Shown here in pieces: positions 1-13,459 of a DNA stretch of 13,459 bases. The position numbers and the translations under genes were made by a program. The notes beneath the pieces are model-generated. The model saw only the letters and a program-made list of their open reading frames with translations, was not told the origin of the DNA and did no database searches. The stretch is from the UHGV virus genome UHGV-0077154; one strand, 5' to 3'. The first letter of the stretch is position 1. Each line of letters starts with the position of its first letter. This stretch comes from a virus.

Positions 1-54
1 GAACGAGAGCTTCCCAAGCTCTATACGAGGGTTCGATTCCCTTCGCCCGCTCCA
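1..54 (+). tRNA. glyU: 3' portion of tRNA-Gly (anticodon CCC), truncated by the window edge; also the tRNA side of attL
   Basis: GAACGAGAGCTTCCCAAGCTCTATACGAGGGTTCGATTCCCTTCGCCCGCTCCA matches my memory of the 3' two-thirds of E. coli glyU. Anticodon stem AGAGC/GCTCT with loop TTCCCAA (anticodon CCC at 13-15), T-arm GGTTCGATTCC, encoded CCA ending at 54. The 5' part lies outside the window. Confidence 0.9.
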
Positions 55-61
55 GTCTCCT
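2..61. repeat. attL copy of the direct repeat (tRNA-Gly 3' end plus 7 nt downstream)
   Basis: Identical to 13376-13435. Similarity continues for 24 more nt with 3 mismatches (62-85 vs 13436-13459). Base 1 (g) continues the authentic tRNA body (..TAGAACGAG). Confidence 0.9.
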
Positions 62-621
62 GATAAATCAACAAGTTATGATTTATCAGTTAGTTACGTT
101 GCCCCGCTTTAGCAGGTACAACTTAAACTACCCATTGTTCTACGCCCGCACCTGTCGCGTGATTGGTCTGTGGTACAAGGGAGCATATCATCACGCTGGC
201 GGTGGTTCCAAGTTCTTACCGCGACAGTACAACAACGAACAAAAAGCCGCATACCTGGCATAACTCCCGAACTGATTGATCACACGCATTTAAGCCCGAT
301 GTGTGGCCCTATGAGCCACGTAAACAGGTGAATAGTGGTAATGCCCCGGTAGCTACAGATCCGGCTCTGCCAGCGCTTCGCTCACGCTCCGAAAGGTACA
401 CGAGCACCCTGATAAGGTGTGATCCATCTGACAATCTGATGATGTCGCTACGCTCCGCTTGTTGCTTGTACCACTAACGGGGCTTTATGGTTTCTATTGA
501 CTTAAATTAGATAGTTGCAAGGAAATAAACTAAGGATAATTTAAGTGTTGAGCGGTTTACTCATACTGCTTGAGGGCAGTATCATTACAACATTAATGGG
601 ATTTTTAAGGGACTGATGTGA

Positions 622-1257
622 ATGGCTGAGTATCATCCTGCGGTATTTAATGCTGAGGCTTTTAACTGTCCTTACTGCGGTGTATATGCCCGTCAGTTCT
701 GGCGCAATTTGTTTGGTAGCGGAAATGCGTTGGCAACTGTTGCGACTGCGTTCCGTATGTCAACATGTTCTCATTGTGATGAAGATTCTTATTGGTATGA
801 GGGCAATATGATGGTCCCTGCTGCTGGAAATGTGGAACTACCTAGTCCTGACATGCCTGAAGACTGCAAGTTCGACTATATGGAAGCAAGAAGCATCGTT
901 AATCTGTCCCCTAAAGGTGCTGCTGCACTCCTTCGCCTGAGTCTGCAAAAACTGATGGTCCACCTTGGCGAACCGGGTAAACATATTGACACGGACATAA
1001 AATCTCTCGTGGCTAAAGGCTTGTCTCCGTTGGTCCAAAGAGCCGCAGATATTTGTCGCATTGTCGGTAATCAGGCTGTTCACCCCGGAGAAATTAATCT
1101 TGATGATGACCCGCAATTAGCACATGGCCTCTTCAAATTACTGAATATTATTGTCACGGAACAAATTACCAGACCCAAAGAGGTTGAAAAGATGTTCAAT
1201 AGTATGCCTGAAAGGGCGTTGAAGGGTATTGAAAACAGAGATAAACCTAAAACTTAA
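622..1257 (+). CDS. Zn-ribbon + DUF4145-like (HEPN-related?) protein, 211 aa; candidate defence/abortive-infection cargo
   Basis: ATG at 622 is preceded by AAGGGA (607-612). The N-terminus has paired CxxC motifs (CPYC...CSHC). The C-terminal helical region [11 protein letters not shown]...IKSLVAKG...[16 protein letters not shown] fits the DUF4145 signature (R..GN.A.H) as I remember it. A possible promoter is TTGCAA (515-520), 16-bp spacer, TAATTT (537-542). Confidence 0.7.
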
Positions 1258-1261
1258 ACTG

Positions 1262-1277
1262 AGGGGCTTAAGCCCCT
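1262..1277. terminator. Perfect 16-bp palindrome AGGGGCTTAAGCCCCT between convergent genes (possible bidirectional terminator)
   Basis: GC-rich hairpin lying between the stop of 622-1257 (+) and the stop of 1283-2101 (-). The flanking T/A runs are short (TTTA downstream), so strength is uncertain. Confidence 0.45.
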
Positions 1278-1282
1278 TTAGA

Positions 1283-2101
1283 TTATTCAGAAAACCAAAT
1301 TTCTGGCCGTCTAAACTCCTTATTCTCAATAAAAAACAGAATATCTTTCCAGGCTTCTTCATTTTCTTCCCAGAATTTTTGTTTTTCATTCATTGTAAGG
1401 ACTTTACTATCATCTATTAACTTCTTGAGAATAGCAGGGATATCTTTATAGGGTTTTTTCCAGAAGGCATTACGTAATTCTTCAATTTCTGCATTTGCAT
1501 CCCGAACGGGTTTTAGAAGTTCAAGCTGTTTTTCTGTATCGGTAATAGGTTTATTTCCAACCCACTGATGATAGATTTTGCTAGCTTCTTCATGATGACC
1601 CCGAAGAATTGTTATTATTGTTTTTGAGAGTAACGAGCACATGTCAAAAGTAGTAAAGTAAAACCAATCGTGTTTGATTGCGGTTAATTCATCTTTTTTA
1701 ACCCCTATTTGTTCAAGTTCACTCGAAATTGAAGATACTAATTTATAAAGATCTTTGTTTGATGTTGCTGTATCTAGGCGTCCGGTTCTGGAGGCTAATG
1801 AAATAGCTACTTCAGAAATAGGTAAGGAAACTTTTCTTAAACTATCTAAAACTTTTTCAGCATCGTTAATAGTATCTCTTAATTTTGCCTCCATGCCTAA
1901 GAGCTTTATTTCATGCCATTCAAATTGAGTAAGTACCATCAACCCGAAGCCTGTTACAATGACAACAGTCCCTTCAGTTGCTCCTATTGTCAGAGTTACA
2001 ATTACACCAGCGCCTATAAGTAGCAATGCAATGAAAAACAAAAAATTCTTTATCCATTTATTTTTTAGCATATCACTGTCACCATTACGATTAAATTTCA
2101 T
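1283..2101 (-). CDS. AT-rich membrane protein, 272 aa, two N-terminal TM helices plus a helical cytoplasmic domain; function unknown
   Basis: Long uninterrupted ORF in very AT-rich DNA (19 G+C in the 60 nt at 1381-1440). Hydrophobic segments are FLFFIALLLIGAGVIVTLTIGA and VVIVTGFGLMVLTQF, and the remainder is charged and helical. The start is uncertain (ATG 2101 has no clear SD; the internal Met at codon 11 follows GGTGA). Confidence 0.75.
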   Translation of the reverse strand: MKFNRNGDSDMLKNKWIKNFLFFIALLLIGAGVIVTLTIGATEGTVVIVTGFGLMVLTQFEWHEIKLLGMEAKLRDTINDAEKVLDSLRKVSLPISEVAISLASRTGRLDTATSNKDLYKLVSSISSELEQIGVKKDELTAIKHDWFYFTTFDMCSLLSKTIITILRGHHEEASKIYHQWVGNKPITDTEKQLELLKPVRDANAEIEELRNAFWKKPYKDIPAILKKLIDDSKVLTMNEKQKFWEENEEAWKDILFFIENKEFRRPEIWFSE

Positions 2102-2124
2102 CCAATATGAAGTAAAGTAAGTAA

Positions 2125-2334
2125 CTATTTTTCGTTCTCTGATGCCTCAAACGTCTTGGAGTGAGGGCAGGACTGGGAGCGCGTCACCAGCGTGAACAGA
2201 TAAATGTTGCTTTCGTAAGTGCAAAGCCGTTTTCCGCCCTGTAACTCTTGTTCGTCGGGGTTGCTCATGGTGATTTTTCCTGCATGAGCCGCCAGCGGCA
2301 GCAGTGCCACAACAAATAGTAAAATTTTCTTCAT
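2125..2334 (-). CDS. Small secreted protein (about 69 aa) with a Sec signal peptide
   Basis: MKKILLFVVALLPLAAHA/GK is a classic n-h-c signal peptide with an AxA cleavage motif, and the mature part has two Cys. The ORF track starts at GTG 2340; I prefer ATG 2334. It lies 23 nt upstream of, and co-oriented with, the 272-aa gene. Confidence 0.55.
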   Translation of the reverse strand: MKKILLFVVALLPLAAHAGKITMSNPDEQELQGGKRLCTYESNIYLFTLVTRSQSCPHSKTFEASENEK

Positions 2335-3325
2335 TTCCACAACCTGCCCCGTAGGTGTCCCGGCTCTTTATCCTCCAAGTTTACATTCTCCTGTTGAAAA
2401 TATCCCCGGCTCTGTTGGTGATCTGCTAGACCGTCAGCCCAGGCCCTCGGTGAAAAGCGCTTTTCTTCGCCAAATATCGCTACGTTATGCCTTCAGCGAC
2501 ACGCCTCACTGCAACAAGCAGTGCAGTTACACAATGCTGCTTTGGGCTGAGGCAAGGGAGATAACTTGATGTTTTGAAGTGCCTCTGTTCACTAATTGTA
2601 CAACCATTTAACATATTGTATCTTATAAGTACTTGACTGGAATGGTCAGGTATTGCTTTTCGGAGCGTTGATGCGAAGCGGAGTACACAACAACGATTTG
2701 ATCAACAGAAGGAAAGCATTCGGGAGGATTTGAGGTGAGTTCTCTTGTTCAAGGATTTTGGATGAGTTTGTCCGGTCACCACACAATTTCAGGTTTCAGG
2801 CCTTTGAAGCTGCCAGCGCATCTAACACGATGAAAGAGCATTTTTCTCTTTATCAGCAGAAAAAGAGCTACTACGGCGACGTTACCACAACGGGGTGAAG
2901 AACTATCGTCACCTGGCGAAATTCTCCCGCCCTTGCAGGTCACGGATACGTACCTTTTCCCGCACCAGCGCAAGCCTTCTCACCAATAGCCCCGTATGCT
3001 CCACCAGAAGCGCTACAGCGCGTCATCTCCACACAATTGTAAACTACACACCCATAGCACAGCGCCCCGCTGAGAAGCTCTGACACGCCCAGAAATGGAT
3101 GGTTTTTCGTTGATTTTGCGAAGAAAATTAATTTTTTCGGTATGGAAGGGCGGATCGGTAAACTGGTTTGACACGCATTTGGTTGACATATTTAACGCAT
3201 CCAGCCCCTGCGCGGGTTCGTTGTGTATCCGATACCATAACGATCACCACACCACACAGGCGAGCCAGTGACAACAGACAGGATTTTCTAGCAATTAACC
3301 GCAATTAACAGGTATTAAAGCTCTA

Positions 3326-3697
3326 TTATTTCCCGCCGAAAATCCAACCGATGATGGCACCGATTATCGCAGAGCGGGTCTCACCTGCTGCTCCTTTGAG
3401 AACGTTAATAACTGCATCGCCTGCACCAGGTGCCTGCTGTTGAAGTAAATTCAAACCACGAGGTGTTAACTTGGCGGCGGTATCCATGTCGGTTGAAGAG
3501 ATTATCTCCGTGTAACCCATATCGCTGAGAGCCTGGAGTGTGTTGCAAAGCAGGTCAATCTGAGTTCTGTCTCCTCTGGGCTTCCAGCCGAAGTCTGAAA
3601 ATTCGAAAGAAGAGTAAGCCGGATAGTCCGCAAACAGTTTCACCAGGATTCCAGTTGCCATCTCGTTAAAGCTGTCTTTGCCTTGGACGAATTCCAT
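3326..3697 (-). CDS. 123-aa protein with a C-terminal hydrophobic Gly/Ile-rich anchor; transcribed divergently from the control region
   Basis: ATG at 3697 has an AGGA SD 6 nt upstream (minus-strand AAAAGGAAACATT-ATG). The composition looks protein-like. The C-terminus SAIIGAIIGWIFGGK looks like a tail anchor or glycine-zipper helix. Confidence 0.7.
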   Translation of the reverse strand: MEFVQGKDSFNEMATGILVKLFADYPAYSSFEFSDFGWKPRGDRTQIDLLCNTLQALSDMGYTEIISSTDMDTAAKLTPRGLNLLQQQAPGAGDAVINVLKGAAGETRSAIIGAIIGWIFGGK

Positions 3698-3820
3698 AAT
3701 GTTTCCTTTTGTTCACTGATTGAACGAGGTTACTTACTTACCGCTGGAAGTGCCAGCAAGAAGGGATGACGCTGTGCTGTTAATCACTAGGTGAGGGGGT
3801 GTCTTCTACCAGAGGGGAGG

Positions 3821-3915
3821 CCATTGGTAAAGAATCTTAACTAACGTTAGTAAAGATCCTTAACCAGCCATTAGTAAAGAATCTTAACTAACCATTGGTA
3901 AAGATACTTAACCGT
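3821..3915. repeat. Four tandem ~23-24 bp iterons (CCATTGGTAAAGAATCTTAACTAA-type)
   Basis: Copies start at 3821, 3845, 3868 and 3892: ccattggtaaagaatcttaactaa / cgttagtaaagatccttaaccag / ccattagtaaagaatcttaactaa / ccattggtaaagatacttaaccgt. They are contiguous with no spacers. Confidence 0.85.
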
Positions 3916-3917
3916 AC

Positions 3918-3959
3918 TATATCACTTACTAGATCATCTTTAGATCACTGCCTATATCA
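3918..3959. repeat. Four helically phased heptamers TATATCA / TAGATCA / TAGATCA / TATATCA
   Basis: Heptamers start at 3918, 3930, 3941 and 3953 (spacing 12, 11, 12 bp), immediately after the iterons. The two inner copies contain GATC. Confidence 0.6.
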
Positions 3960-4130
3960 GTAAAAACATTAAGGTCAAAGACAGATTGAACATGCGTTCA
4001 ATTGTTGGAGTTGTTAGGTGTTATGTAGACAGGCTTCGCCTGTTTACACTCTGTGTGGAAGACAAGCGCAAGCGCGTCAGTCCAATGTGGATCGAGCACG
4101 GCGCAGAGGAGCTTTAAACGCGACGTAACT

Positions 4131-4160
4131 CCCCCCTTGGAGGGGCGGCGCACCCCCCTC
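4131..4160. promoter_or_regulatory. GC-rich dyad with a lambda-cosN-like core (candidate cos/packaging site)
   Basis: GGGCGGCGCACC (4143-4154) compared with the lambda cohesive end GGGCGGCGACCT recalled from memory: the first 8 nt are identical and the rest aligns with a 1-nt indel. It is flanked by the inverted hexamers GAGGGG (4140-4145) and CCCCTC (4155-4160), and it is intergenic. An 8-mer match alone is near chance level. Confidence 0.3.
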
Positions 4161-4296
4161 AACCCTGCGCTCTAACAACATCTCTAGAGTCCTCTATCGC
4201 GTTCTGAGCGTCTTTCTCTTATTGTTGGTGACTTTGTACCGTTCCGCTTACAGCGTTGAATCTGAAGCGTCTGAGAGCGTTTTGTGATTACGGGGC

Positions 4297-4410
4297 TTGA
4301 CAAAGAAAATGTATGTGTATAAGGTTGCGGGGTATTGACACAAAACATTTATATCTCTTTATTCATTAAATGAGTTATCGGTTGACAAAGAAACTAATTT
4401 ACTATAAAAT
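4297..4410 (+). promoter_or_regulatory. Three tandem consensus -35 boxes/promoters upstream of the rightward operon
   Basis: TTGACA occurs at 4297-4302 (15-bp spacer, then TATAAG 4318-4323), at 4335-4340 (weak -10 TTTATT 4358-4363) and at 4382-4387 (17-bp spacer, then TAAAAT 4405-4410). The first and third share TTGACAAAGAAA. Confidence 0.55.
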
Positions 4411-4468
4411 ATATATTATCAAATGAGATGATTTTATGACTAAACAATAACTTAAATAGGAGAGATAC

Positions 4469-4897
4469 ATGGGGAAACCTGTTCTGTTCGATTTCTCGAG
4501 CGCCACTGCCTCAGAGATTGTCGCTGCAATCGATGCAAAAATTACCACAGCTCAAAATCTGCACGCCTTCCGCACTCGTATGGGTGGTGCCAAGAAAGCC
4601 GATAAGCTCTATCCAGCTACTCGCGAAGCACTGAACATCATTAAACGCCTGCGTCAGCAAGCGAAAGACGCAAAAATCATCCGGGATATTCTTAAACCGT
4701 ACTCAGCAGAGTTGGCAAAAGGCCGTGATGTTATGGAAATCATTGAACCAGTGCTGTCTGCCTGGCGTGTCTATTACGCCTCTCATGGCATTGGTTTGAT
4801 GAATGAGCAGATCCTCCTGTTGAAAATGATTGAGGCGGGCGGTGAACTCGAAGGTATTACCGGAAAACCCATTCCCGAACTGACCACAACCGAATAA
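4469..4897 (+). CDS. 142-aa helical protein of unknown function; first gene downstream of the triple promoter
   Basis: AGGAGA SD (4458-4463) lies 5 nt before the ATG. The composition is clean and protein-like. I recognise no motif. Confidence 0.8.
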   Translation: MGKPVLFDFSSATASEIVAAIDAKITTAQNLHAFRTRMGGAKKADKLYPATREALNIIKRLRQQAKDAKIIRDILKPYSAELAKGRDVMEIIEPVLSAWRVYYASHGIGLMNEQILLLKMIEAGGELEGITGKPIPELTTTE

Positions 4898-5078
4898 CCA
4901 TTCTCTTCTTTACGGTGCGAAGCACTTTACCAGAGGTAAACACCTCCGGTGCTATTAGCTTTACTCTGTTGGCAGCAACGCCACCAAACGAAATCGCCGT
5001 AAACACGGCTCCTTACCCCTGATCAATTCCATGATCGCAGGGGCGCACCCGCATATCTAACGCACAGGAGAGATGATT

Positions 5079-5264
5079 GTGAAACTGTCACTAGACGATG
5101 AAACATATGCAATTTTACGCGAAGAATCTGACCGTTTGGGGATGCCAGTTCCGAGGATGATCCGGAACATGTGCCAGAACCTGGCGAAACACATTCAGAA
5201 ACGCAATGAACAACCACTGACGAACCCACAGGGAGAACAACATGACAGAGACAGTAGAAGCTAA
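5079..5264 (+). CDS. Ribbon-helix-helix (CopG/Arc-type) DNA-binding protein, about 61 aa
   Basis: KLSLDDETYAILREESDRLGMPVPRMIRNMCQNLAKHI fits beta-strand/helix/helix RHH architecture. AGGAG (5066-5070) is 8 nt from GTG 5079 but only 2 nt from the ATG 5073 used by the ORF track. The 3' end overlaps the next gene by 23 nt. Confidence 0.65.
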   Translation: MKLSLDDETYAILREESDRLGMPVPRMIRNMCQNLAKHIQKRNEQPLTNPQGEQHDRDSRS

Positions 5265-5886
5265 TCTGCCAGACGAACAGGACGGCACTTTTGATCGCAA
5301 TTATACCGAGATTAAGCGCTTGAAAGTGTTGGTTGCCGACGATGGAACTAAAATTCCGTTCAGCGCGAACATGAAAGTAGTCTACGCCTACCTCTACACC
5401 TTCCAGACAAATAAAGAGCGGCGGAACTACCCTGAGCCAATTTATCCTAATATGGAAATAATCGCGTGGGAAAATGGCATTACTAAACCCACGGCGCAAA
5501 AGGCTGTGGATGATTTGATGCGGGCGGGGGTGTTGATTAAGGACCAAATTCAGGTTGGGAGCGGGTTTAAGTCCAACAATTACGTTGTGTTGAAACCCTC
5601 GAAAGTGGTGGCGCGTGGCGTCACTCCACCGCATCCAAATGCTTCTAAATATTCAACTGCCGAGGAGAGCGGTAAGAATGAACAAAAACGTGCTGTGGTG
5701 GAACCTGCCGCGCCTGTTGCTGGAAAACCAGACGGCATACCTGTTGTGGATATTCCTGTCGATGCTGATGTACCTGCCGATGATGATGCGGTGATCGGAG
5801 ACTTTAGTGATCCTTACCTTGATGCTGAAGTAAAAGAATGGCAGAAACAAAAACATAGTGGAGGATTGAATTGTGTGAACACGTAA
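5242..5886 (+). CDS. Winged-helix DNA-binding protein with an acidic/proline-rich C-terminal tail, 214 aa (possible origin-binding/initiator or regulator)
   Basis: GGGAG SD (5231-5235). The core VVYAYLYTF...MEIIAWENGITKPTAQKAVDDLMRAGVLIK looks like a wHTH of the plasmid/phage Rep-type helix-turn-helix family. The C-terminus PVVDIPVDADVPADDDAVIGDF looks disordered. Confidence 0.75.
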   Translation: MTETVEANLPDEQDGTFDRNYTEIKRLKVLVADDGTKIPFSANMKVVYAYLYTFQTNKERRNYPEPIYPNMEIIAWENGITKPTAQKAVDDLMRAGVLIKDQIQVGSGFKSNNYVVLKPSKVVARGVTPPHPNASKYSTAEESGKNEQKRAVVEPAAPVAGKPDGIPVVDIPVDADVPADDDAVIGDFSDPYLDAEVKEWQKQKHSGGLNCVNT

Positions 5887-6347
5887 GCGTTGAACTGACC
5901 GCAGATGAAGAACAAAAGCTATCTCGCCTTTTCTCCGTCCTGGAGAAACCGACATATAAATCCCGATCCAAACCTTCCGATCCGGAAACACAACGCAAAG
6001 CCCGTTTATTGCTTAATCGTGGATTTTCACCGCATATTGTCGCTAATACCCTAGATCTGCCGTTCGCTGAAGTCTGGCGGCTCGCACGTCAAAAACAAGC
6101 GGTGACCTGGGCGATGATGACACCGACAGCCCGGACAGAATTTGTCCGTGAAATGTGGTCACATCGGATGCACCCGGAACAGATCCGCAAGCGTTGCGAT
6201 GGTCTGTCATACGTCAGTCTGAGATATTACCTGCATAACGCCGGGATCACTGACGCTGAAATGTTGGGTTACTACCCAGACGTGTTCGTGAATATCTGCA
6301 AGCTGCCGACAGTGAAGAAGAAGCGCACTAAGTGTAAGGCCCGTTAG
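5871..6347 (+). CDS. 158-aa protein with two HTH-like segments and a basic C-terminus (regulator or packaging-specificity factor?)
   Basis: TTG start has a GGAGGA SD (5860-5865) 5 nt upstream and overlaps the previous gene by 16 nt. Candidate HTH segments are GFSPHIVANTLDLPFAEVWRLARQ and MHPEQIRKRCDGLSYVSLRYYLHNAG. The tail is KKKRTKCKAR. Confidence 0.7.
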   Translation: MCEHVSVELTADEEQKLSRLFSVLEKPTYKSRSKPSDPETQRKARLLLNRGFSPHIVANTLDLPFAEVWRLARQKQAVTWAMMTPTARTEFVREMWSHRMHPEQIRKRCDGLSYVSLRYYLHNAGITDAEMLGYYPDVFVNICKLPTVKKKRTKCKAR

Positions 6348-6414
6348 GGTGAACGTTAACGTTCATCACTTTGTGACCGGATCGCCAATCCAAATAATCC
6401 CACATCGGGAGCCA

Positions 6415-6531
6415 ATGAACTTTGAAGCAATCCTTTCTTACCTGCCCGTTGTCTGGCTGGCGTATCGCTGCGTCCGTGATGGGCTGATCCTACTTTGGAG
6501 ACACCATAAAAATGACATTGAACAGCATTAA
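6415..6531 (+). CDS. Possible 38-aa single-TM peptide (uncertain)
   Basis: Internal ATG 6415 follows GGGAG (6407-6411). The product MNFEAILSYLPVVWLAYRCVRDGLILLW is hydrophobic. It fills the gap between two coupled genes and overlaps the next start by 20 nt. The track's longer GTG-6349 version has no SD. Confidence 0.3.
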   Translation: MNFEAILSYLPVVWLAYRCVRDGLILLWRHHKNDIEQH

Positions 6532-6892
6532 AAATGCTCTGTTTGCCGCTATGCACGGCATGACACCGGAGGAATACGAACTCCAAAAGGCGCGGGACAA
6601 TCTCAAGAGCGTCACCGATAACTTTCTGGATCAACATCCGGAGTTGCTCAAATCAGCCTCGTCTGACACCCCCACGGATAAACGGGGCGAAGCCCTCTCG
6701 CCAATGCGAGACACCTTTGGTGCTGAACAACGGATTAAAAAATCTTTGGGCGCTGATAGCCGTCCGGCGGTAAGTCATACCGCTGATCACATCGATCCTG
6801 AAATGCTGGCGAAAGCTAAAGCAGCGGCTGCTGCTCTCGCAAAATCTGACCCTGATCGTTACGGCAATATCATCAAGCAGCAGGGGGTGTGA
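6512..6892 (+). CDS. 126-aa acidic/Ala-rich protein of unknown function, translationally coupled to the 715-aa gene
   Basis: GGAGA (6497-6501) lies upstream of the ATG. The stop TGA (6890-6892) overlaps the ATG at 6892 (TGATG). The sequence looks largely helical or disordered. Confidence 0.7.
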   Translation: MTLNSIKNALFAAMHGMTPEEYELQKARDNLKSVTDNFLDQHPELLKSASSDTPTDKRGEALSPMRDTFGAEQRIKKSLGADSRPAVSHTADHIDPEMLAKAKAAAAALAKSDPDRYGNIIKQQGV

Positions 6893-9036
6893 TGGCGAAT
6901 GGCAATATCATAGTGACTGAAACCGTAAACGAGGTGACATGGTCTGTCGATCGGACAGCCTTCGGTCGCGCCCTGAAAGCTGTTAAATCCATCAAGGCTG
7001 CTCATGAGAAACCAGCTAAGGCGCTTGAGAAGGCCCAGAAGCGGACCGTCCAGAGTGAAGGCAAAGCCGCACTAGCAGCAGCGAAAGCCCAGACAGCGAA
7101 GCTACGCCAGGCTGAACAATTGTCTAAACAGCAACAGAAACAAGCTCAGATACAAGCCAAAATGGAGCGGGACGCAGTAGCCCACGCCAATAAAATGACC
7201 TCATTACAGGCGCGTCAGTTATCCCAACAGGAACAGGCAGCACGTCAGAATGCCCGTTTAGCAGCAATATCTGAAAAGGTGAGACAGGCGAGTCGCTCCC
7301 GCGCGATGACCTACACCCCAAACATGGGCGGTCAACATTACGATCCTGGTCTTGTTTCCCGTCAGACTGACGCAATGAACCGTGGTCACGGCGCTGTTGC
7401 TGCCGACATCGCAGCCACCAAAAAGGCGATGGCCCTGGAGGAGAAGCGCCAGCGTGAGAAAGAGGCAGGACTTAAGCGTGAGGTGACTTATTACAACAGT
7501 TTGCGCCGTAGCGCTTTGACTCTGGCAAACGTGAACGGCGCTGACGTTGCAACCCGTTATAAAGCGATCAGTGCAGCAAAAGAGGCACTCAAAGCCCAGA
7601 AAGAAGAGCGTTATACGGTCGAAGAGACCCGTTTCGAAATGGCCCGTATCACTACAGAATTACGCAAGCAGGCTCGTCTGCAACAACGTATTACCCGTGA
7701 GCAGAAAGCCGCAGGTGTTCGTGCTGGTCGTGTACGCACAGAAAGCCGTGGTGGAAGTGTAGGTCTGGCTGCCGCTGGTGTTGTTGGTGGTGCGGCGTTA
7801 GTAGGTAGTATGGGCGTTTCTCGTGTTGGTCAGACCCTTCAGGGAAGCCTTGAGCGTTCTCGCGATGTGAAAAAACTCCAGCAGTATGGGATCAGCAACC
7901 TTGAGTTCGCAGCACTTCAGGATCTATCAATGAGCCGTGTTGGTTACTCACTGAGTGCTGACAAGCTGGCTGACCTCAACAAGGACACAACCGAAAAGGC
8001 CGGGGAATTGCTGAATACTGGCTCTTTCAAACGTAACAAGAAAACTGGACAGGTGAATTTCAGCGGCGGTGGTGAGTTTGCAGATATCATCAATAACGTA
8101 CTGACCTCCACCAACGGCAACCAGAAGGTAGCCCAAAAGGTGATCGGGGAACTGCAAAAACTGGATTTTCCAACATTTATCACTTATCTAAAGCAATTAC
8201 AGAAAACTTTCGGCTGGACTGATCGACAGGTGCGACACCTGGCCGAGGCTGTGAATGATGGTTCGGTCTTCCTCGAAGTGTTCAATGATGAGGGGCAGGG
8301 ACTTATCCAGCGTATGAATCAACTCGCTTCTGAAGGATGGACCCTATCTGATGCACAGCAGGCCAACCTTGATAAGCTGGCAGCTTTGGGTGCTGAGTAC
8401 AGTCGCGTGCAGATGTCGCTTGCTGACCACTTCAGCGCCAGCTTCGTGCAGGGTCTGGGAGAATATGCAGCTAATACTGACACTCTACGTCAGAAGATGA
8501 CTGGACTGATCCCAATTTCCGATGCTCTCGGCGTTGCCCTTGGTGAGCTAACCACCAACATTCTCTCCTTCGCTGGTCGAGTCGGTGAAGAACTCAAGAA
8601 AGGCGCGACACTGCCGGATGCAGTCTACAACACCGTAGTGGATGACTCTGCAAATAGCACCGCCGATTGGATTAAGGAAAAGACCGGATTTGATCCACGC
8701 AGCATCGGTCAGACGCTCAAACAGATTTACCCGTGGCTGGATAGTTTCGCTCCGAGCAATATCGGCTCAGGCACGGCGTATAACGATCCAGCGCTAGCGT
8801 TGAATGTTCCTGGTTTCAACTCAATACAACCCCAGCAACCAACGTTTACGATTCCGACAATTGACAGCATGACGCAGCGACAGCCGATTCCTGTTGCGGT
8901 CACTGGCGAAGCTGAGATTAAACTCTCACCGCTTGATATTAACGTGAATGACGGCGCTATTAACGGTTTGATTGATACAAAACTGAGGAGCTATGAGCAG
9001 GCACAGAACAACATGATCCTTGGTATTGCTCAATGA
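6892..9036 (+). CDS. 715-aa coiled-coil + glycine-zipper TM + tape-measure-like domain protein
   Basis: Roughly residues 30-290 are Q/A/K/R-rich heptad-like sequence. GGSVGLAAAGVVGGAALVGSMGV is a Gly-zipper hydrophobic segment. The next ~200 aa (LADLNKDTTEKAGELLNTGS...GGGEFADIINNV...LKQLQKTFGWTDRQVRHLAEAVNDGSVFLEVFNDEGQGL...LSDAQQANLDKL) resemble the conserved core of phage tail tape-measure proteins as I recall it. Confidence 0.8.
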   Translation: MANGNIIVTETVNEVTWSVDRTAFGRALKAVKSIKAAHEKPAKALEKAQKRTVQSEGKAALAAAKAQTAKLRQAEQLSKQQQKQAQIQAKMERDAVAHANKMTSLQARQLSQQEQAARQNARLAAISEKVRQASRSRAMTYTPNMGGQHYDPGLVSRQTDAMNRGHGAVAADIAATKKAMALEEKRQREKEAGLKREVTYYNSLRRSALTLANVNGADVATRYKAISAAKEALKAQKEERYTVEETRFEMARITTELRKQARLQQRITREQKAAGVRAGRVRTESRGGSVGLAAAGVVGGAALVGSMGVSRVGQTLQGSLERSRDVKKLQQYGISNLEFAALQDLSMSRVGYSLSADKLADLNKDTTEKAGELLNTGSFKRNKKTGQVNFSGGGEFADIINNVLTSTNGNQKVAQKVIGELQKLDFPTFITYLKQLQKTFGWTDRQVRHLAEAVNDGSVFLEVFNDEGQGLIQRMNQLASEGWTLSDAQQANLDKLAALGAEYSRVQMSLADHFSASFVQGLGEYAANTDTLRQKMTGLIPISDALGVALGELTTNILSFAGRVGEELKKGATLPDAVYNTVVDDSANSTADWIKEKTGFDPRSIGQTLKQIYPWLDSFAPSNIGSGTAYNDPALALNVPGFNSIQPQQPTFTIPTIDSMTQRQPIPVAVTGEAEIKLSPLDINVNDGAINGLIDTKLRSYEQAQNNMILGIAQ

Positions 9037-9132
9037 TGAAACAGAGGGTGGCGAATTCGTCGCCCCTATCTCAACACCACAATGCGTATGTATCAAATTT
9101 AGCGACAAATCAAATACTTTTCGTGAAATTTG

Positions 9133-9161
9133 TTGTAAATGATAATCATTCGTGTTAAAAT
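9133..9161 (+). promoter_or_regulatory. Candidate sigma70 promoter with extended -10, heading the capsid-gene leader
   Basis: -35 TTGTAA (9133-9138), 17-bp spacer, TGTTAAAAT (9153-9161; TGn + TAAAAT), inside an AT-rich stretch just after the 715-aa gene. Confidence 0.45.
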
Positions 9162-9511
9162 AATATACAAGGTGAATTACAACAGCCAAATGTTTTTCCC
9201 TTCTCCTTAGGAATCAAAGTGCGCTTTTCCCAGAGCGCCTTTTCTCATACAGCCAATATCCGCACCCTCTCACGGTAAGGTTAGGCCATTGCCGCTGGCT
9301 GTATCAGAAAAGCATCGCAGAGCGATTAGCCAGCAGGCTAACCCGTTCTCGTGTGTAGAAAATTTCCACCTAAGGTGGATTTGCCAAAAGTCCTGTCCTC
9401 CTCGGCGGGCTGTCAGCCGGACACTAACGGCATCAGGTGGCAACGTTTTTGGGTCTCCTTACCCATTCTTTGGAGCGTTGCCGCCTCCTCATTCCTACCA
9501 GTGAAATTCAC

Positions 9512-9542
9512 ACCGGACGACTCTCCGTCCGGTCACTTTTTT
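9512..9542 (+). terminator. Intrinsic terminator candidate t1 in the capsid leader
   Basis: Stem ACCGGACG (9512-9519) pairs with CGTCCGGT (9526-9533), loop ACTCTC. CAC follows, then a T6 run (9537-9542). Confidence 0.5.
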
Positions 9543-9557
9543 CATCGGAACAATTCT

Positions 9558-9610
9558 AAAGGCTGGCCCTGTCGCCGTTTACGGCTCAAGCAGGCGCTGG
9601 CCTTTTGTTT
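9558..9610 (+). terminator. Intrinsic terminator candidate t2 (long GC-rich compound hairpin + U-run) just before the capsid-gene RBS
   Basis: 9561-9571 pairs with 9591-9602 (one bulge, two G-U pairs), with an inner hairpin GCCG-TTTA-CGGC (9574-9585). AAA (9558-9560) can pair with the following T-run, and TTTTGTTT lies at 9603-9610. Confidence 0.55.
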
Positions 9611-9645
9611 ACATAGCTATGTGAAATTTAACGGGAGTTAATTAT

Positions 9646-9987
9646 ATGAAAATGGGAAGCCTTGAGCGCTCTTACAATGACGTGATCGCGTATGCAGCCG
9701 ATCCGAATTTTGACCGCAAGACTATTACTGTCGATCTAGCTGTAGAAGTCCAGCCGGGTAGTTGCATTACCAGCACTGGAGCTGCTTATGTCTCTGGTGA
9801 TGACTGCCTGCTGGTCCTGAGCCACCACAGGGCCGAAGATGCTGCTCATATCATCGTTGCTGATCGCGGGATTTACATCAAACAAGACACCATCACCGCT
9901 GTTATGGGCGCTACCGCTGGCGCTAATGCTATTGCCGCACTCACCAAAACGGGCGCAATCCGTACTAGCGCACCGGACGCAGAATAA
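9646..9987 (+). CDS. Head decoration protein, lambda gpD-like, 113 aa
   Basis: GGGAG SD (9633-9637) is 8 nt from the ATG. Size, position immediately upstream of the gpE-like gene, and the pattern ...GDDCLLVLSHHRAEDAAHIIVADRGIYIKQDTI...TGAIRTS parallel lambda gpD (...[31 protein letters not shown]...GTAISIV, from memory). Confidence 0.6.
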   Translation: MKMGSLERSYNDVIAYAADPNFDRKTITVDLAVEVQPGSCITSTGAAYVSGDDCLLVLSHHRAEDAAHIIVADRGIYIKQDTITAVMGATAGANAIAALTKTGAIRTSAPDAE

Positions 9988-10005
9988 TAATAAGGAGAAG
10001 ACAAC

Positions 10006-11040
10006 ATGGGACTATCAACCAATTTCAGCTACGCGGATTACACCAACACCTTTGTGAACATGGATGCAAAGAACACTTTGCTGTCCACGCTTAATGTTTT
10101 CAGTGATCGTCAGACTTCTGCAAGTCCGAAGGTGAGCCTCGATATCATTGATGAAGTCGCTCAGAAGGTGGCAAGCTCTGTTAATCGTTACGGTTCAGAG
10201 TGGTCAACCATTCCTAAGCGTAGCGCTAGCAATCACCTGATTGAAGCTCCACTTTATGCTTTTCAAGACCGGATTACAGCGGCAGACGTGCAACCATATC
10301 GCAAACCAGGCTCCGACCTGCAAATGTCTGTAATGGATGCGGTCACTTCTTCTGCTGTCGCAATGCACGATAAGTACATGCGTACTAAAGAGAAAATTTT
10401 CGCTGACGCACTCTTCCGAAATACTGTCGAAGCGACCTACACCCAGCAGCCGATCATTTCCTGGGAAGATGAATTTGGATACCAACAGGCAACCGGAACG
10501 ATCAAAACCAGCGTTAGCTCTGGTGACCCACTTCGCAGCCTCGATGATGCAGTAACCGCTGCTAAAGTGCGCATGGGGGGCCTGGCTGGTCAGCTTGATG
10601 GATTTATCCTGTTTGCAGGTAGCAATGTTTATCGCGGCATTAAGTATCACCCTGATGTTCGTCAGAATGTTCAGTTCGGTGTGCTTGATCGGGATGTTCT
10701 GTTTAATAAAGAAGTGCTTCCGGCATTCTCAACATTCATCATTGAAAATGTTCGAGTGGTGGAGGTCACGGATCAGGCACTTTACGGAATTGGTCCGGAT
10801 GAATCCTTCCTGGTTCCACGTTTCAGCCGCCCACTGTCCTCTGATATTGCTCTACCTTTCGGTTATGTAGCAACGGCTACCAGCCGCAATCTTGATCTGG
10901 CATTTGCTGATCCGGTTGATTTCCGTATCTGGAGCGTACAGGACAAGTTTAAGAACGTGGAGCTATTCGCGGAAAGCTCAATCTTGCCTGTGGTGTACCG
11001 TCCGGATTTCGTTACAAAACTGACGAACGACGCAGCGTAA
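10006..11040 (+). CDS. Major capsid protein, lambda gpE family-like, 344 aa
   Basis: AAGGAGAA SD. The length is close to lambda gpE (341 aa). It sits directly after a D-like gene. The C-terminal ...ESSILPVVYRPDFVTKL resembles gpE ...SAPLMLLADPDEFVSVQL (from memory). Confidence 0.75.
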   Translation: MGLSTNFSYADYTNTFVNMDAKNTLLSTLNVFSDRQTSASPKVSLDIIDEVAQKVASSVNRYGSEWSTIPKRSASNHLIEAPLYAFQDRITAADVQPYRKPGSDLQMSVMDAVTSSAVAMHDKYMRTKEKIFADALFRNTVEATYTQQPIISWEDEFGYQQATGTIKTSVSSGDPLRSLDDAVTAAKVRMGGLAGQLDGFILFAGSNVYRGIKYHPDVRQNVQFGVLDRDVLFNKEVLPAFSTFIIENVRVVEVTDQALYGIGPDESFLVPRFSRPLSSDIALPFGYVATATSRNLDLAFADPVDFRIWSVQDKFKNVELFAESSILPVVYRPDFVTKLTNDAA

Positions 11041-11121
11041 GACAGCGGATTTTGGGGCTGACTATTTGGCCCCACCGTGAAGAATGGCCTGAAAAGGCGA
11101 GGCAAAGAAGAGGTGATTACT

Positions 11122-11325
11122 ATGAAAATTCAATTTCAGACTAACAACGGCTTCCCGTTGCTGACAGTTGCAGACGAGCGCGTTTTAGATTTTCTGAACG
11201 TTAGCGCAGTGTGTCGGTTCCTGAAGGTTCCGCGTTCCTCGTTCATGATGGACGTTGAGCAATACGGGCTTGAAAAGGCAATCAGTGAAGCCCTGCTGAA
11301 GTTAAGAAAGAATAAAAATTGTTAA
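11122..11325 (+). CDS. 67-aa HTH protein (AlpA/excisionase-like DNA-binding protein?)
   Basis: ATG 11122 follows GAGGTG (11110-11115). LNVSAVCRFLKVPRSSFMMDVEQYG resembles the MerR-type/excisionase HTH pattern. The upstream GTG-11077 extension in the track lacks an SD. Confidence 0.55.
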   Translation: MKIQFQTNNGFPLLTVADERVLDFLNVSAVCRFLKVPRSSFMMDVEQYGLEKAISEALLKLRKNKNC

Positions 11326-11386
11326 TAATCAATCTGTTGGTATTTGTTGTCAAAAGAATCATTGTGTTTGTTTTTCGCGCATTTAC

Positions 11387-11415
11387 TTGACACTATGATG
11401 CAGATTGCGTAGGCT
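11387..11415 (+). promoter_or_regulatory. Candidate promoter of the two-gene cassette
   Basis: TTGACA (11387-11392), 17-bp spacer, TAGGCT (11410-11415). Confidence 0.4.
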
Positions 11416-11509
11416 GAACATAAAATAATTGACTATTCTATATTCAAACCGGACTTCAACTTGAGAATGCTTCGTTCCTACATCTCCCTTCAAGGGGTAG
11501 GAGGATTAT

Positions 11510-11719
11510 ATGAACTTTGATATGCGTACAAACCAAAATTGTGCATCTTTTTTTAACCCAGCAACCAAGGCGTTTGTCGTCGTCGATTCGTTTGACAACT
11601 ACGAGTTCGATGTTCGTGCTGGTACTTTATCACGCACTGAATTTGTAGGCACAATCACAGCTTCGAACGATGAAGAGTTGAACAAGAAATTAGCTGAGAT
11701 CACGGCTGCTCATATATGA
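11510..11719 (+). CDS. 69-aa protein, first gene of an overlapping pair (unknown; antitoxin-like position)
   Basis: Strong AGGAGG SD (11499-11504) lies 5 nt before the ATG. The stop overlaps the next start (ATGA at 11716-11719). The gene is AT-rich. Confidence 0.7.
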   Translation: MNFDMRTNQNCASFFNPATKAFVVVDSFDNYEFDVRAGTLSRTEFVGTITASNDEELNKKLAEITAAHI

Positions 11720-12090
11720 TAACTCAACAGCAAATTGATGATTTAGTTGCAGATATTAACGATATCTTAGAAGAAGATAGAGCTAGACTGAAGATGTCAT
11801 TTCATTTTGCTGTTGATAGACTCAATGATCAGCGTAACAAACCTCCAATCACGCTAGATGAATTGAGAGTGATTTTTACAAATTTCATTGAACAACACTT
11901 GCAGACCATTTTAGGCAAAGATGAGGGGTTCTCCTTCACTATTAAGTGCCAGAAATCAGGTATTGCTATACCTTGCGCCATAGAGCATGAACTTGAGATT
12001 GGTGCAACGTGGGTAGTACAGCAAGTGATCACCATCATGCGGAATCCGAACTTTAACCCATACCATGGTGATGTCATCTTCGAAATCTAA
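11716..12090 (+). CDS. 124-aa protein, second gene of the overlapping pair (unknown; toxin/effector-like position)
   Basis: Translationally coupled by the ATGA overlap and followed directly by a strong terminator. I recognise no motif. Confidence 0.7.
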   Translation: MITQQQIDDLVADINDILEEDRARLKMSFHFAVDRLNDQRNKPPITLDELRVIFTNFIEQHLQTILGKDEGFSFTIKCQKSGIAIPCAIEHELEIGATWVVQQVITIMRNPNFNPYHGDVIFEI

Positions 12091-12092
12091 GT

Positions 12093-12118
12093 AAAAAGGC
12101 GCAATAGCGCCTTTTTTT
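12093..12118. terminator. Bidirectional intrinsic terminator shared by the cassette and int
   Basis: AAAAA-GGCGC-AATA-GCGCC-TTTTTTT: a 5-bp GC stem (12098-12102 / 12107-12111) flanked by an A5 run and a T7 run. The int stop codon (12117-12119) lies in the T-run. Confidence 0.8.
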
Positions 12119-13313
12119 ACAAATCCGGATAACACGCCAACTCGACATACTCCGATAGTTCCTTCATCCCTGGCCCTTTGCTGTAGGTTCTGAATGCTTC
12201 GGTTTTCGCTTTTTGTTCGGTATGTCCAGTGATGGCTCCGATCCGTTGTTCTGGCACCCCTGCACGGTCTAAGCAGGTGATGAACATTCCCCGTAAGCTG
12301 TGAAAACATTGCCGATCTGTAGCGGTTGGCAATGTGCTGTCACGTAGCCGGGTAAACTTTTGGCTGTACCACGGACCCCGCTTACCATCCTTCCGAATGA
12401 TGTTATTAGACTGAGCCAGAAGATATTCACCGCTGTTATTTGCCAGATGCTTATCAACAATCCCCATCAGCAGCGAGTGGATCGGAACATACCGCACCCC
12501 GGCTACAGTCTTGGACTTGCTGACAAAGAAACATCTGACACCCTCCAACATTACAATTTCATCCCGCTTGATGCTGGCGATCTCATCAAGTCGCATTCCT
12601 GAATACAGCCCAATCAGTATGACATCGCGTAGAACGTCATCCGCTTCTCTGACAAGTGTTTGCAATTGTTCAGGTTCAAACGGCTGATAACTTTCTATCG
12701 TGCGACGTGCTTCGAGGTTATGACCGTGAAACGGGTTACTGTCGGGGATTGCGTCATATCGACGTTTGGCGAACTCGTACAGACTCCCTAAAGAGGTTAG
12801 CCAGTTTTGCACGGTCTGCGGTGCTGCCTTTTTCTGTTGGCCTTCAATGAAGTCTGTAACCGTTCTGCGTCCTATCTTGTTCAGACTAATATCAACTTTA
12901 CCGATACTCTGGAGAAATACTTCCACCGCTCGCGCGGATTTGCTGAGTGTGGAAAATGCCCGACGTTCACTATAAACCGTCATGTATTCATCACGGATGA
13001 CTGCCAACGTTGGGATAGGGGAGACTGCTACAGGCGTACTCTTGGCCTGTTTGATTGTGGTGTGGAGTGTGGTGATCGCATTCTGGATGCGAATGTCTTC
13101 CCGATCAGGATTCAACAGGGCTTTCAGATTGTTGAACTCAATCAACATGTGATTTCTGAAGTGACGAGCCTTAAGGATGTCTTTTGTCCCGGTGGATTTT
13201 CGCCAGGCTCGTTTGTTGTCAAACAGGTGACGCATGTACGCAGGTACAAAGACCTGAAAGATCCATACGCCCGAATGACTTTGAAAAAGATACTGATTGT
13301 TCTTGATAGACAT
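12117..13313 (-). CDS. int: Tyrosine recombinase / phage-type integrase, 398 aa
   Basis: Catalytic signature visible: ...YSGMRLDEI (Arg), HSLRGMF (His-x-x-Arg), ITGHTE (His), FRTYSKG (Tyr). It sits next to attR with its 5' end facing the tRNA-derived repeat. Confidence 0.95.
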   Translation of the reverse strand: MSIKNNQYLFQSHSGVWIFQVFVPAYMRHLFDNKRAWRKSTGTKDILKARHFRNHMLIEFNNLKALLNPDREDIRIQNAITTLHTTIKQAKSTPVAVSPIPTLAVIRDEYMTVYSERRAFSTLSKSARAVEVFLQSIGKVDISLNKIGRRTVTDFIEGQQKKAAPQTVQNWLTSLGSLYEFAKRRYDAIPDSNPFHGHNLEARRTIESYQPFEPEQLQTLVREADDVLRDVILIGLYSGMRLDEIASIKRDEIVMLEGVRCFFVSKSKTVAGVRYVPIHSLLMGIVDKHLANNSGEYLLAQSNNIIRKDGKRGPWYSQKFTRLRDSTLPTATDRQCFHSLRGMFITCLDRAGVPEQRIGAITGHTEQKAKTEAFRTYSKGPGMKELSEYVELACYPDL

Positions 13314-13375
13314 GATTTCGATCCTCTAAAATCACGCCATCAGGTACAGCCATATGTACAATGTCGGGATGGAGT

Positions 13376-13435
13376 AACGAGAGCTTCCCAAGCTCTATAC
13401 GAGGGTTCGATTCCCTTCGCCCGCTCCAGTCTCCT
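13376..13435. repeat. attR copy of the direct repeat: displaced 3' fragment of tRNA-Gly (13376-13428) plus 7 nt; not a functional tRNA
   Basis: Identical to 2-61. The sequence upstream (..GGGATGGAGT) diverges from the tRNA body (..AATGGTAG), so the acceptor 5' strand and D-arm are missing. Confidence 0.9.
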
Positions 13436-13459
13436 CATAAATTAACAAGTTATAATTTA

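What the first reader, a model, noticed from the sequence alone, without database searches (positions are those of the whole stretch)
1283..2340. Compositionally foreign leftward module: small secreted protein followed by a very AT-rich two-TM protein
The 272-aa gene is far more AT-rich than the rest of the element (19 G+C in 1381-1440, versus 36 G+C in 7741-7800), implying separate acquisition. It encodes two N-terminal TM helices plus a ~200-aa charged helical domain with no motif I recognise. Immediately upstream and co-oriented, 23 nt away, is a roughly 69-aa signal-peptide protein of ordinary GC content. A membrane-anchored protein in a satellite cargo slot, convergent with the DUF4145-like gene, is a typical profile for superinfection-exclusion or abortive-infection effectors. 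The pairing with a periplasmic peptide is unexplained.
Basis: partly seen in the sequence, partly recalled or inferred. Interest (0 to 1): 0.5.

Follow-up and report, generated by a model that had tools for sequence, protein, structure and literature searches.

The report
Orphan membrane-anchored cargo gene beside RAZR
The AT-rich gene is a separately acquired cargo gene for a membrane-anchored protein of a large, unnamed family that keeps turning up in the variable and defence slots of phage satellites, prophages and defence islands, so it is a good untested candidate anti-phage gene; the small secreted protein next to it is an ordinary backbone gene of the element, not its partner.

Summary
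Both leftward ORFs exist. Its real start is probably Met11 (ATG 2071, 262 aa).

The "module" reading is not supported. The 69-aa signal-peptide protein, with two invariant Cys, is a conserved backbone gene of this satellite family. It occurs in 76 of 5426 E. coli genomes, against 22 for the TM gene.

TM-gene homologues occur without it:
- at the integrase end of related satellites;
- in the orf30 slot (between S and V) of P2-like prophages;
- next to Mrr/RM, NucC-like, ABC-ATPase/AbiE and Abi_alpha genes in distant bacteria.

The convergent "DUF4145" gene is RAZR (PD-T7-4), a validated single-gene abortive-infection RNase. It is swapped independently of the TM gene.

The TM protein belongs to a family of about 600 cluster representatives with no Pfam, NCBIfam, PADLOC or PHROG model and no PDB or BFVD fold match. 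A confident AF2 model (pLDDT 93.5) shows an N-in/C-in TM hairpin and an all-helical cytoplasmic domain.

Best reading: a stand-alone anti-phage (abortive-infection or exclusion) cargo gene. This rests on context only and is untested.

The parts
1283..2071 (-). Cargo gene for a 262-aa inner-membrane-anchored all-helical protein. The alternative upstream ATG at 2101 would give 272 aa. It has a TM hairpin at residues ~5-49, then a cytoplasmic domain of ~210 aa.
   Evidence: ORF. Met11 is invariant and is used by RefSeq. GC 0.34, GC3 0.26. AF2 pLDDT 93.5. 598 family representatives at E<=1e-3. No Pfam, NCBIfam, PADLOC or PHROG hit.
2125..2334 (-). Backbone gene for a 69-aa secreted (Sec signal peptide) mini-protein with two invariant Cys. 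It is not a dedicated partner of the TM gene.
   Evidence: phrog_4641, E=2e-8. At least 198 clusters across Enterobacteriaceae. Present in L002 and L003 without the TM gene. Found in 76 of 5426 E. coli genomes against 22 for the TM gene. Cys38 and Cys56 are invariant.
2072..2124 (-). Short spacer between the two genes. No promoter-like or terminator-like site was found, so the TM gene is probably co-transcribed by read-through from the 69-aa gene (inferred).
   Evidence: Pattern scan. Upstream sequence with GGTGA before ATG 2071.
2335..2660 (-). Upstream region of the 69-aa gene, which belongs to the same recently shared block (1164-2660). It is the presumed promoter region for the 69-aa and TM transcript (inferred).
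   Evidence: 98.9% identity to L001, while the sequence beyond 2700 falls to 61-84%.
1259..1281 (.). GC-rich hairpin (GGGGCT-TAAG-AGCCCC) between the convergent stop codons. It coincides with the recombination breakpoint between the RAZR slot and the TM gene. It is a possible bidirectional terminator, but a weak one.
   Evidence: -11 kcal/mol, z = -1.4. Similarity to L009-L011 starts at 1263 (at 1293 in L012).
622..1257 (+). Convergent neighbour: RAZR (PD-T7-4), a single-gene abortive-infection zinc-finger/HEPN RNase. It is an independent system.
   Evidence: PADLOC PDLC04109, E=4e-98, full length. Pfam DUF4145. Cys16, 19, 49 and 52 plus R146 and H154 are present. Function from PMC13017515.
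1..55 (+). 3' part of tRNA-Gly, which is attL of the element. The matching attR copy is at 13376-13429.
   Evidence: Rfam tRNA. Matches tRNA-Gly of 5,400 E. coli genomes. Direct repeat.

Best explanation
**What it is.** Gene 1283-2071(-) is an independently acquired cargo gene. It sits in the tRNA-proximal variable slot of a 13.4-kb integrative, satellite-like element.

**The protein.** It is anchored in the inner membrane by an N-terminal helical hairpin. The N-terminus and the bulk of the protein are cytoplasmic, and the periplasmic loop is about 5 residues. A juxtamembrane helix about 40 residues long follows, ending in a conserved R-x-G-R loop, and then a helical bundle.

**The family.** It belongs to a large uncharacterised family that travels as a single gene between satellite cargo slots, the orf30 moron slot of P2-like prophages and defence islands.

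**Most likely function (inferred).** A stand-alone anti-phage protein. The variable part of the cytoplasmic domain would recognise a phage component. The conserved hairpin and juxtamembrane module would then act at the membrane, either killing or arresting the cell (abortive infection) or blocking entry (exclusion).

**Expression in this element (inferred).** Probably by read-through from the upstream 69-aa backbone gene.

**Independence.** It needs neither that secreted protein nor the convergent RAZR gene.

**Shown versus inferred.**
- Shown: composition, gene structure, topology signals, family size, lack of known homologues, and independent distribution from both neighbours.
- Inferred: expression, anti-phage role and mechanism.
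For: **Foreign origin.** GC 0.34 and GC3 0.26 against 0.48 for the rest of the window.

**Independent of the 69-aa gene.**
- The TM gene is in 22 of 5426 E. coli genomes, the 69-aa gene in 76.
- L002 and L003 have the 69-aa gene but other cargo.
- Homologues lack the 69-aa gene in L004-L008 and L013-L025.

**Independent of RAZR.**
- L009-L012 keep 264-499 and 1263-2829 (L012 only as far as about 2427), but the interval between, which holds RAZR, carries an unrelated ORF of 157-171 aa.
- Window versus L001: RAZR is 80.5% identical, while the TM and 69-aa block is 98.6-99.5% identical.
- RAZR defends on its own (PMC13017515).

**Contexts of the family.**
- Convergent with RAZR (window).
- Convergent with a Pfam Abi_alpha gene, near ParE and Dam (L025).
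- Between gpS and gpV of P2-like prophages. This is a known slot for horizontally acquired genes (PMC3091744).
- Beside Mrr and a NucC-like nuclease, between IS91/integrase pairs (L019).
- Beside an MTase-Mrr fusion (L022).
- In an RM/Vsr/PLD/Bro-N island (L021).
- 11 nt after a Ppl/GajA-like ABC ATPase, between two integrases, with AbiEii (L023).

**Architecture.**
- AF2 pLDDT 93.5.
- K+R counts: N-tail 2.0, loop 0.5, post-TM2 3.2. The loop length is fixed.
- Conservation is highest from TM2 to residue 104 and lowest at 172-226.
Against: - There are no experimental data.
- There is no detectable homology to any validated defence, exclusion or Abi protein.
- One of the 12 independent contexts examined looks like housekeeping (L020), and one is an uninformative chromosomal region (L017).
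- In P2-like prophages the gene starts 11 nt after gpS, in the late operon. This fits a phage-cycle function as well as a moron.
- No TM-gene promoter was identified, and co-transcription is not shown.
Confidence: 0.5

Rival explanations
1. Phage or satellite life-cycle membrane protein. It would be, for example, a holin, antiholin or lysis-timing factor, or a factor that interferes with the helper phage at the membrane, rather than host defence.
For: In P2-like prophages the homologue lies in the late operon, 11 nt after gpS and just downstream of the lysis cassette (gene order in PMC3091744). An N-in/C-in two-TM hairpin is also the class II holin topology (established knowledge). In the window it sits in a satellite.
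Against: The protein is 262 aa with a conserved cytoplasmic domain of about 200 aa, which is unlike holins. Homologues occur in non-phage defence islands and between IS elements. No homologue was found in 50,697 deposited phage genomes or in BFVD. It is present in only some members of the satellite family.
Confidence: 0.15
2. Accessory membrane protein unrelated to phages. It would be a lysogenic-conversion, stress or envelope function, or an immunity-type protein, that merely hitch-hikes in mobile-element slots.
For: One member is in a housekeeping-like neighbourhood (L020). Another is near DUF1493 and WapI-like genes in a Pantoea chromosome (L017). No defence homology was found.
Against: The distribution is sporadic, 0.4% of E. 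coli genomes. The gene is repeatedly adjacent to Abi, RM or nuclease genes in unrelated taxa. It occupies slots known to hold defence cargo.
Confidence: 0.2
3. The first reader's module: the secreted 69-aa protein and the TM protein form a two-component system, with a periplasmic peptide and a membrane partner.
For: They are co-oriented, 23-53 nt apart, with no terminator between them. They are almost identical as one block between two elements with different integrases. The same pair occurs in L009, L010 and L012.
Against: The 69-aa gene is far commoner, with at least 198 clusters against 13 close ones and 76 against 22 E. coli genomes. It occurs without the TM gene (L002, L003). The TM family occurs without it in every other context. 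The TM protein exposes only about 5 residues to the periplasm.
Confidence: 0.07
4. Partner of RAZR: an antitoxin, regulator or second effector of the convergent PD-T7-4 gene.
For: The two genes are immediately adjacent and convergent, 25 nt apart. A second family member is convergent with another Abi-type gene (Abi_alpha).
Against: RAZR confers defence alone from its native promoter (PMC13017515), and PADLOC models it as a single gene. RAZR is replaced by unrelated ORFs while the TM gene stays. Most family members have no DUF4145 neighbour. The two genes have discordant divergence, 80.5% against 98.6%.
Confidence: 0.05

Closest known systems
Stand-alone membrane-anchored abortive-infection or exclusion proteins carried as prophage or satellite cargo. 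Examples are two-TM effector proteins of the SLATT type, and prophage superinfection-exclusion proteins such as HK97 gp15 or T4 Imm. The resemblance is recalled from knowledge, not tested.
   Same: A single gene with an N-terminal TM anchor or hairpin and a cytoplasmic tail. It is AT-rich cargo in variable slots of temperate elements and sits next to other defence genes.
   Different: No sequence or fold similarity to any of them was detected: no Pfam SLATT or other hit in 106 members, and no PADLOC hit. The conserved all-helical domain of about 210 aa has no counterpart in those proteins. No phenotype is known.
RAZR / PD-T7-4 (the convergent neighbour, 622-1257)
   Same: It occupies the same cargo slot of the same element, and both are single genes near a tRNA att site.
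   Different: The proteins are unrelated. RAZR is a soluble zinc-ribbon plus DUF4145/HEPN RNase. The TM protein has no Rx4-6H motif and no conserved His. The two are exchanged independently.
P2 orf30-locus cargo (the variable slot between tail genes S and V of P2-like phages)
   Same: Family members P0134, P0284 and P0135 sit exactly there. The slot is described as holding horizontally acquired genes (PMC3091744).
   Different: The window copy is in a satellite-like element, not in P2. No phage in the collection, P2-like phages included, encodes a detectable homologue (tblastn found no match in the phage collection).

Membership tests
RAZR / PD-T7-4 (applies to neighbour 622-1257 only) | Full-length match to the PD-T7-4 model and a DUF4145 (HEPN-like) domain | tested here: met
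   PADLOC PDLC04109, E=4e-98, residues 1-209 of 211. Pfam DUF4145, E=3.9e-13.
RAZR / PD-T7-4 (applies to neighbour 622-1257 only) | N-terminal Cys4 zinc ribbon and catalytic R146 and H154 (PMC13017515) | tested here: met
   Cys at 16, 19, 49 and 52, with R146 and H154 present. Residue roles are taken from the paper.
RAZR system, as a putative second component (TM gene) | Conserved co-occurrence with the RAZR gene | tested here: not met
   RAZR is replaced by unrelated ORFs in L009-L012. No DUF4145 gene lies next to homologues in L004-L008 and L013-L025.
Two-gene operon of 69-aa secreted protein and TM protein | Conserved co-occurrence and adjacency of the two genes | tested here: not met
   76 against 22 E. 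coli genomes. L002 and L003 lack the TM gene. Most TM homologues lack the 69-aa gene.
SLATT-type two-TM effector domains | Sequence match to a Pfam or PADLOC SLATT model | tested here: not met
   No SLATT family among the Pfam hits of 106 members. One member hit RTasSLATT weakly (E=0.002) out of 106.
SLATT-type two-TM effector domains | Two closely spaced TM helices forming the effector core | tested here: met
   Helices 5-28 and 31-49. Present in 92 of 106 members. This is an architectural resemblance only.
Class II holins | Small protein (typically under 150 aa) with two TM helices and a short charged C-terminus, located in a lysis cassette | tested here: not met
   The protein is 262 aa with a conserved helical domain of about 210 aa. 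No endolysin or spanin gene is adjacent in the window.
HEPN RNases | Conserved Rx4-6H motif in an alpha-helical core | tested here: not met
Validated anti-phage defence system (any) | Protection against phage on heterologous expression | not testable with these tools
The accessions WP_061092834 and WP_061092835 are absent from the searchable literature.

The most novel reading that the evidence does not exclude
The 262-aa protein founds a new, widespread family of single-protein, membrane-anchored anti-phage systems, with about 600 representatives at 50% identity reaching from Enterobacteriaceae to Omnitrophota. A variable cytoplasmic helical region (residues ~172-226) would sense a phage component. 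The conserved TM hairpin, juxtamembrane helix and R-x-G-R loop would execute membrane-level abortive infection or entry block. The family is unrelated in sequence and fold to any described defence protein.
Probability: 0.3. Interest if true: 0.6.

Novelty: new member of a known kind. Interest (0 to 1): 0.4.

Why it matters
If the protein is protective, it would add a compact, single-gene, membrane-acting defence family that current annotation tools miss (PADLOC, Pfam and NCBIfam). It would also mark a cargo slot of a poorly described Enterobacterial satellite family as a defence hotspot that already holds RAZR.

The result also shows that the apparent "secreted peptide plus membrane protein" pair is an insertion artefact. 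This saves a mis-designed two-gene experiment.

If the protein is not protective, this is simply one more hypothetical cargo gene.

Tried and rejected
**Family scans of the TM protein.** Pfam, PHROG, PADLOC and NCBIfam scans of the protein and of 106 family members gave only scattered sub-threshold hits.

**Structure-based searches.**
- A PDB sequence-profile search returned only designed helical repeats, E >= 0.008.
- The AFDB50 library was unavailable.

**Deposited phages and plasmids.** tblastn of the protein, and of a 42%-identical relative, found no match in 50,697 phage records or 72,556 plasmids.

**Other searches that gave little.**
- The third word-index search, run with the deep alignment, returned almost only the close set because the candidate cap saturated.
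- The search for related loci with deep alignments failed for lack of a conserved stretch. With a shallower alignment it gave a single locus.
- N-terminal extensions in longer family members showed no informative fused domain.

**Neighbours.** The convergent neighbours (RAZR, Abi_alpha, the 244-aa ORF and the ~170-aa ORFs) are not related to one another.

**Named systems from the literature.** The recent P2/P4 hotspot systems (Crouga, Bandua, Aernus, Toga, Reve, Hailong) do not match this architecture.

**Rejected readings.** RAZR partner, two-gene module, holin and HEPN; see the rival explanations and the membership table for the reasons.
Full report
**1. What is there**

The window is an integrative element bounded by direct repeats of the 3' part of tRNA-Gly. 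The repeats lie at 2-85 and 13376-13459 and are 96% identical. Rfam finds the tRNA 3' part at 1-51, and the ends match tRNA-Gly in about 5,400 E. coli genomes.

The element carries the following genes:
- a tyrosine integrase (12117-13313, minus strand);
- a lambda-E-type major capsid gene (10006-11040);
- a 715-aa tape-measure-like gene (6889-9036);
- a replication-initiator-like gene (5242-5886).

The finding lies at the tRNA-proximal end, opposite the integrase.

**2. Checking the observation**

Both minus-strand ORFs are real and sit at the stated coordinates, 23 nt apart.

| Region | GC | GC3 |
|---|---|---|
| Large gene | 0.341 | 0.26 |
| 69-aa gene | 0.49 | 0.60 |
| Rest of window | 0.477 | – |

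The lowest-GC 789-bp stretch of the whole window lies inside the large gene.

Hydropathy and a high-confidence AF2 model (pLDDT 93.5, pTM 0.73, built from a 106-sequence alignment) agree on the architecture. Two TM helices (5-28 and 31-49) are followed by an all-helical domain.

One correction is needed. Met11 is invariant in all 13 close homologues. Four of them start there, a GGTGA precedes it, and RefSeq annotates that form. The gene is therefore most likely 1283-2071, encoding 262 aa.

The small protein has a canonical Sec signal peptide (…LAAHA|GK). Its two Cys are invariant across 100 homologues, which fits a disulfide-bonded periplasmic mini-protein.

**3. The neighbour is a known defence gene**

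The convergent "DUF4145-like" gene (622-1257) matches the PADLOC PD-T7-4 model over its full length at E=4e-98. It keeps the Cys4 ribbon and the R146/H154 catalytic pair.

PD-T7-4 has been renamed RAZR. It is a ring-activated zinc-finger HEPN RNase that causes abortive infection. It works as a single gene from its own promoter in MG1655 (PMC13017515). So this slot of the element demonstrably carries defence cargo.

**4. The two genes of the finding are not a unit**

The 69-aa gene is widespread. It has at least 198 clusters at 90% identity across Enterobacteriaceae, and 76 of 5426 complete E. coli genomes carry it.

The TM gene is much rarer. It has only 13 close clusters and is in 22 of 5426 genomes, all carrying one allele.

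Related elements keep the 69-aa gene in the same position but have unrelated ORFs downstream of it:
- L002, at tRNA-Gly in E. coli EC21Z-048;
- L003, beside a different integrase in strain AREA_C483.

Conversely, TM homologues occur without the 69-aa gene:
- at the integrase end of a related Enterobacter element, after the capsid gene (L004-L007);
- after a UDG-family gene in a degenerate relative of the element (L008);
- in all more distant contexts (section 6).

The "unexplained pairing" is therefore cargo inserted downstream of a backbone gene. No promoter-like or terminator-like site separates the two genes. The block 1164-2660 is 98-99.5% identical between this tRNA-Gly element and the tRNA-Thr element of E. 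coli 2016C-3878, while the flanks drop to 61-84%. I infer co-transcription from the backbone gene's promoter. This is not shown.

**5. The TM gene is not a RAZR partner**

In L009-L011, similarity to the window covers 264-499 and 1263-2829, but the interval between, which holds RAZR, carries an unrelated ORF of 157-171 aa. L012 shows the same replacement, although its similarity to the window ends at about 2427. The breakpoint falls at the small GC hairpin (1259-1281) between the convergent stop codons.

Between the window and L001, RAZR is only 80.5% identical, whereas the TM gene is 98.6% identical. The two genes have separate histories.

**6. The family and its contexts**

An exhaustive profile search finds 598 representatives (50%-identity clusters) at E<=1e-3, and 201 at E<=1e-10. 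Nearly all are 255-280 aa and align end to end. Named members include Pantoea, Raoultella, Klebsiella, Enterobacter and a Candidatus Omnitrophota MAG.

I examined twelve independent genomic contexts. The distant ones were picked only for contig length.

| Context | Loci |
|---|---|
| Convergent with RAZR | window, L001 |
| Same slot, convergent with an unknown ORF of ~157-171 aa | L009-L012 |
| Integrase end of a related satellite | L004-L007 |
| Degenerate relative of the element, next to an integrase | L008 |
| Convergent with a Pfam Abi_alpha gene, near Dam and ParE | L025 |
| Between gpS and gpV of P2-like prophages | L013-L016, L018 |
| Pantoea chromosomal variable region | L017 |
| Beside Mrr and a NucC-like PD-DExK nuclease, between IS91/integrase pairs | L019 |
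| RM/Vsr/PLD/Bro-N island | L021 |
| Beside an MTase-Mrr fusion | L022 |
| 11 nt after a Ppl/GajA-like ABC ATPase, between integrases, with AbiEii | L023 |
| Housekeeping-like neighbourhood | L020 |

The site between S and V is the P2 orf30 locus, which the literature describes as a slot for horizontally acquired genes (PMC3091744).

So the gene behaves as a self-contained mobile cargo gene that repeatedly lands among defence genes.

**7. How it most likely works**

Several features are shown:
- The topology signals are positive-inside. Mean K+R is 2.0 in the N-tail, 0.5 in the loop and 3.2 just after TM2, and the loop length is fixed. This gives an N-in/C-in orientation, with almost nothing exposed to the periplasm.
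- Conservation across the family is highest from TM2 through the long juxtamembrane helix to the R95-x-G97-R98 loop. It is high again at the C-terminal FRRPxxW motif. It is lowest at residues 172-226.
- Some relatives replace the hairpin with a different anchor but keep the soluble core.

From this I infer a sensor-plus-effector arrangement in one polypeptide. A variable cytoplasmic surface would recognise a phage product, and the conserved membrane-proximal module would act on the membrane. I rate an anti-phage role at about 0.5. A membrane-level abortive-infection mechanism specifically is about 0.3. Entry exclusion is less likely because there is essentially no periplasmic exposure.

**8. 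Rivals**

- *Life-cycle function (lysis timing or helper interference), 0.15.* The late-operon position in P2-like prophages suggests it. The protein's size, its presence in non-phage islands and its absence from sequenced phages argue against it.
- *Phage-unrelated accessory membrane protein, 0.2.*
- *Two-gene module with the 69-aa protein, 0.07.*
- *RAZR partner, 0.05.*

**9. Novelty and verdict**

The protein belongs to a sizeable family that no current library names. Conceptually, though, it is one more candidate single-gene defence or exclusion protein in a mobile-element hotspot, so I rate it "new member of a known kind".

Interest is moderate at 0.4. The candidate is well delimited and cheap to test, but there is no phenotype and no surprising mechanism yet.

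Noticed in passing
window 622-1257 vs L001 13340-13975: The RAZR (PD-T7-4) allele here is only 80.5% identical in DNA to the allele in the same slot of E. coli 2016C-3878, while the sequence on both sides is 97-99.5% identical. This looks like allelic replacement or fast diversification of the defence gene within a conserved frame.
   Followed up: partly
window 2-85 and 13376-13459: The direct repeat is 84 nt (96%) and runs past the tRNA 3' end (position ~51) to the very end of the window. The sequence right of attR therefore resembles the element's own left end. This suggests a second, related element integrated in tandem, as seen in L004, where a second integrase and 69-aa gene follow.
   Followed up: no
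window ~11300-12090: This is a second AT-rich patch (GC 0.38) at the integrase end. It holds a 69-aa ORF and a 124-aa ORF (phrog_14518, E=1e-63). In E. coli L001 a GNAT acetyltransferase occupies this position, and in Enterobacter elements the TM-protein homologue sits here. Both ends of the element seem to be cargo slots.
   Followed up: partly
window 56-13429 (whole element): The element carries a lambda-E-type capsid gene preceded by a 113-aa gene, a 715-aa tape-measure-like protein (PHROG and TMP_3 hits), a replication-initiator-like gene and an integrase. No portal, protease or terminase was detected. By gene content it does not obviously fit P4-like, PICI or cfPICI satellites. Variants sit at tRNA-Gly, at tRNA-Thr and beside rcnR.
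   Followed up: no
window 2125-2334: The 69-aa secreted protein with two invariant Cys is a strongly conserved backbone gene of this element family (at least 198 clusters; phrog_4641). Its function is unknown, and it has only one weak hit in deposited phages (Citrobacter phage Tr1, 42%).
   Followed up: partly
window 2341-3325 and 3698-4468: These are two long stretches without convincing ORFs. Identity of the first to L001 swings from 99% to 61% and back within 1 kb. No Rfam family matches.
   Followed up: no
L023 4051-7798: In a distant family member, the TM-protein gene starts 11 nt after a 979-aa ABC ATPase gene with Ppl/mad3/GajA-like matches. The pair lies between two integrases and near AbiEii. 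It may be a two-gene system in that lineage.
   Followed up: no
L012 (CACSKA010000001.1): A contig labelled Chryseobacterium sp. 18061 carries a 90%-identical copy of this Enterobacterial gene, together with the flanking element sequence (264-499 at 90%). The likely cause is a mislabelled or contaminated assembly rather than cross-phylum transfer.
   Followed up: no
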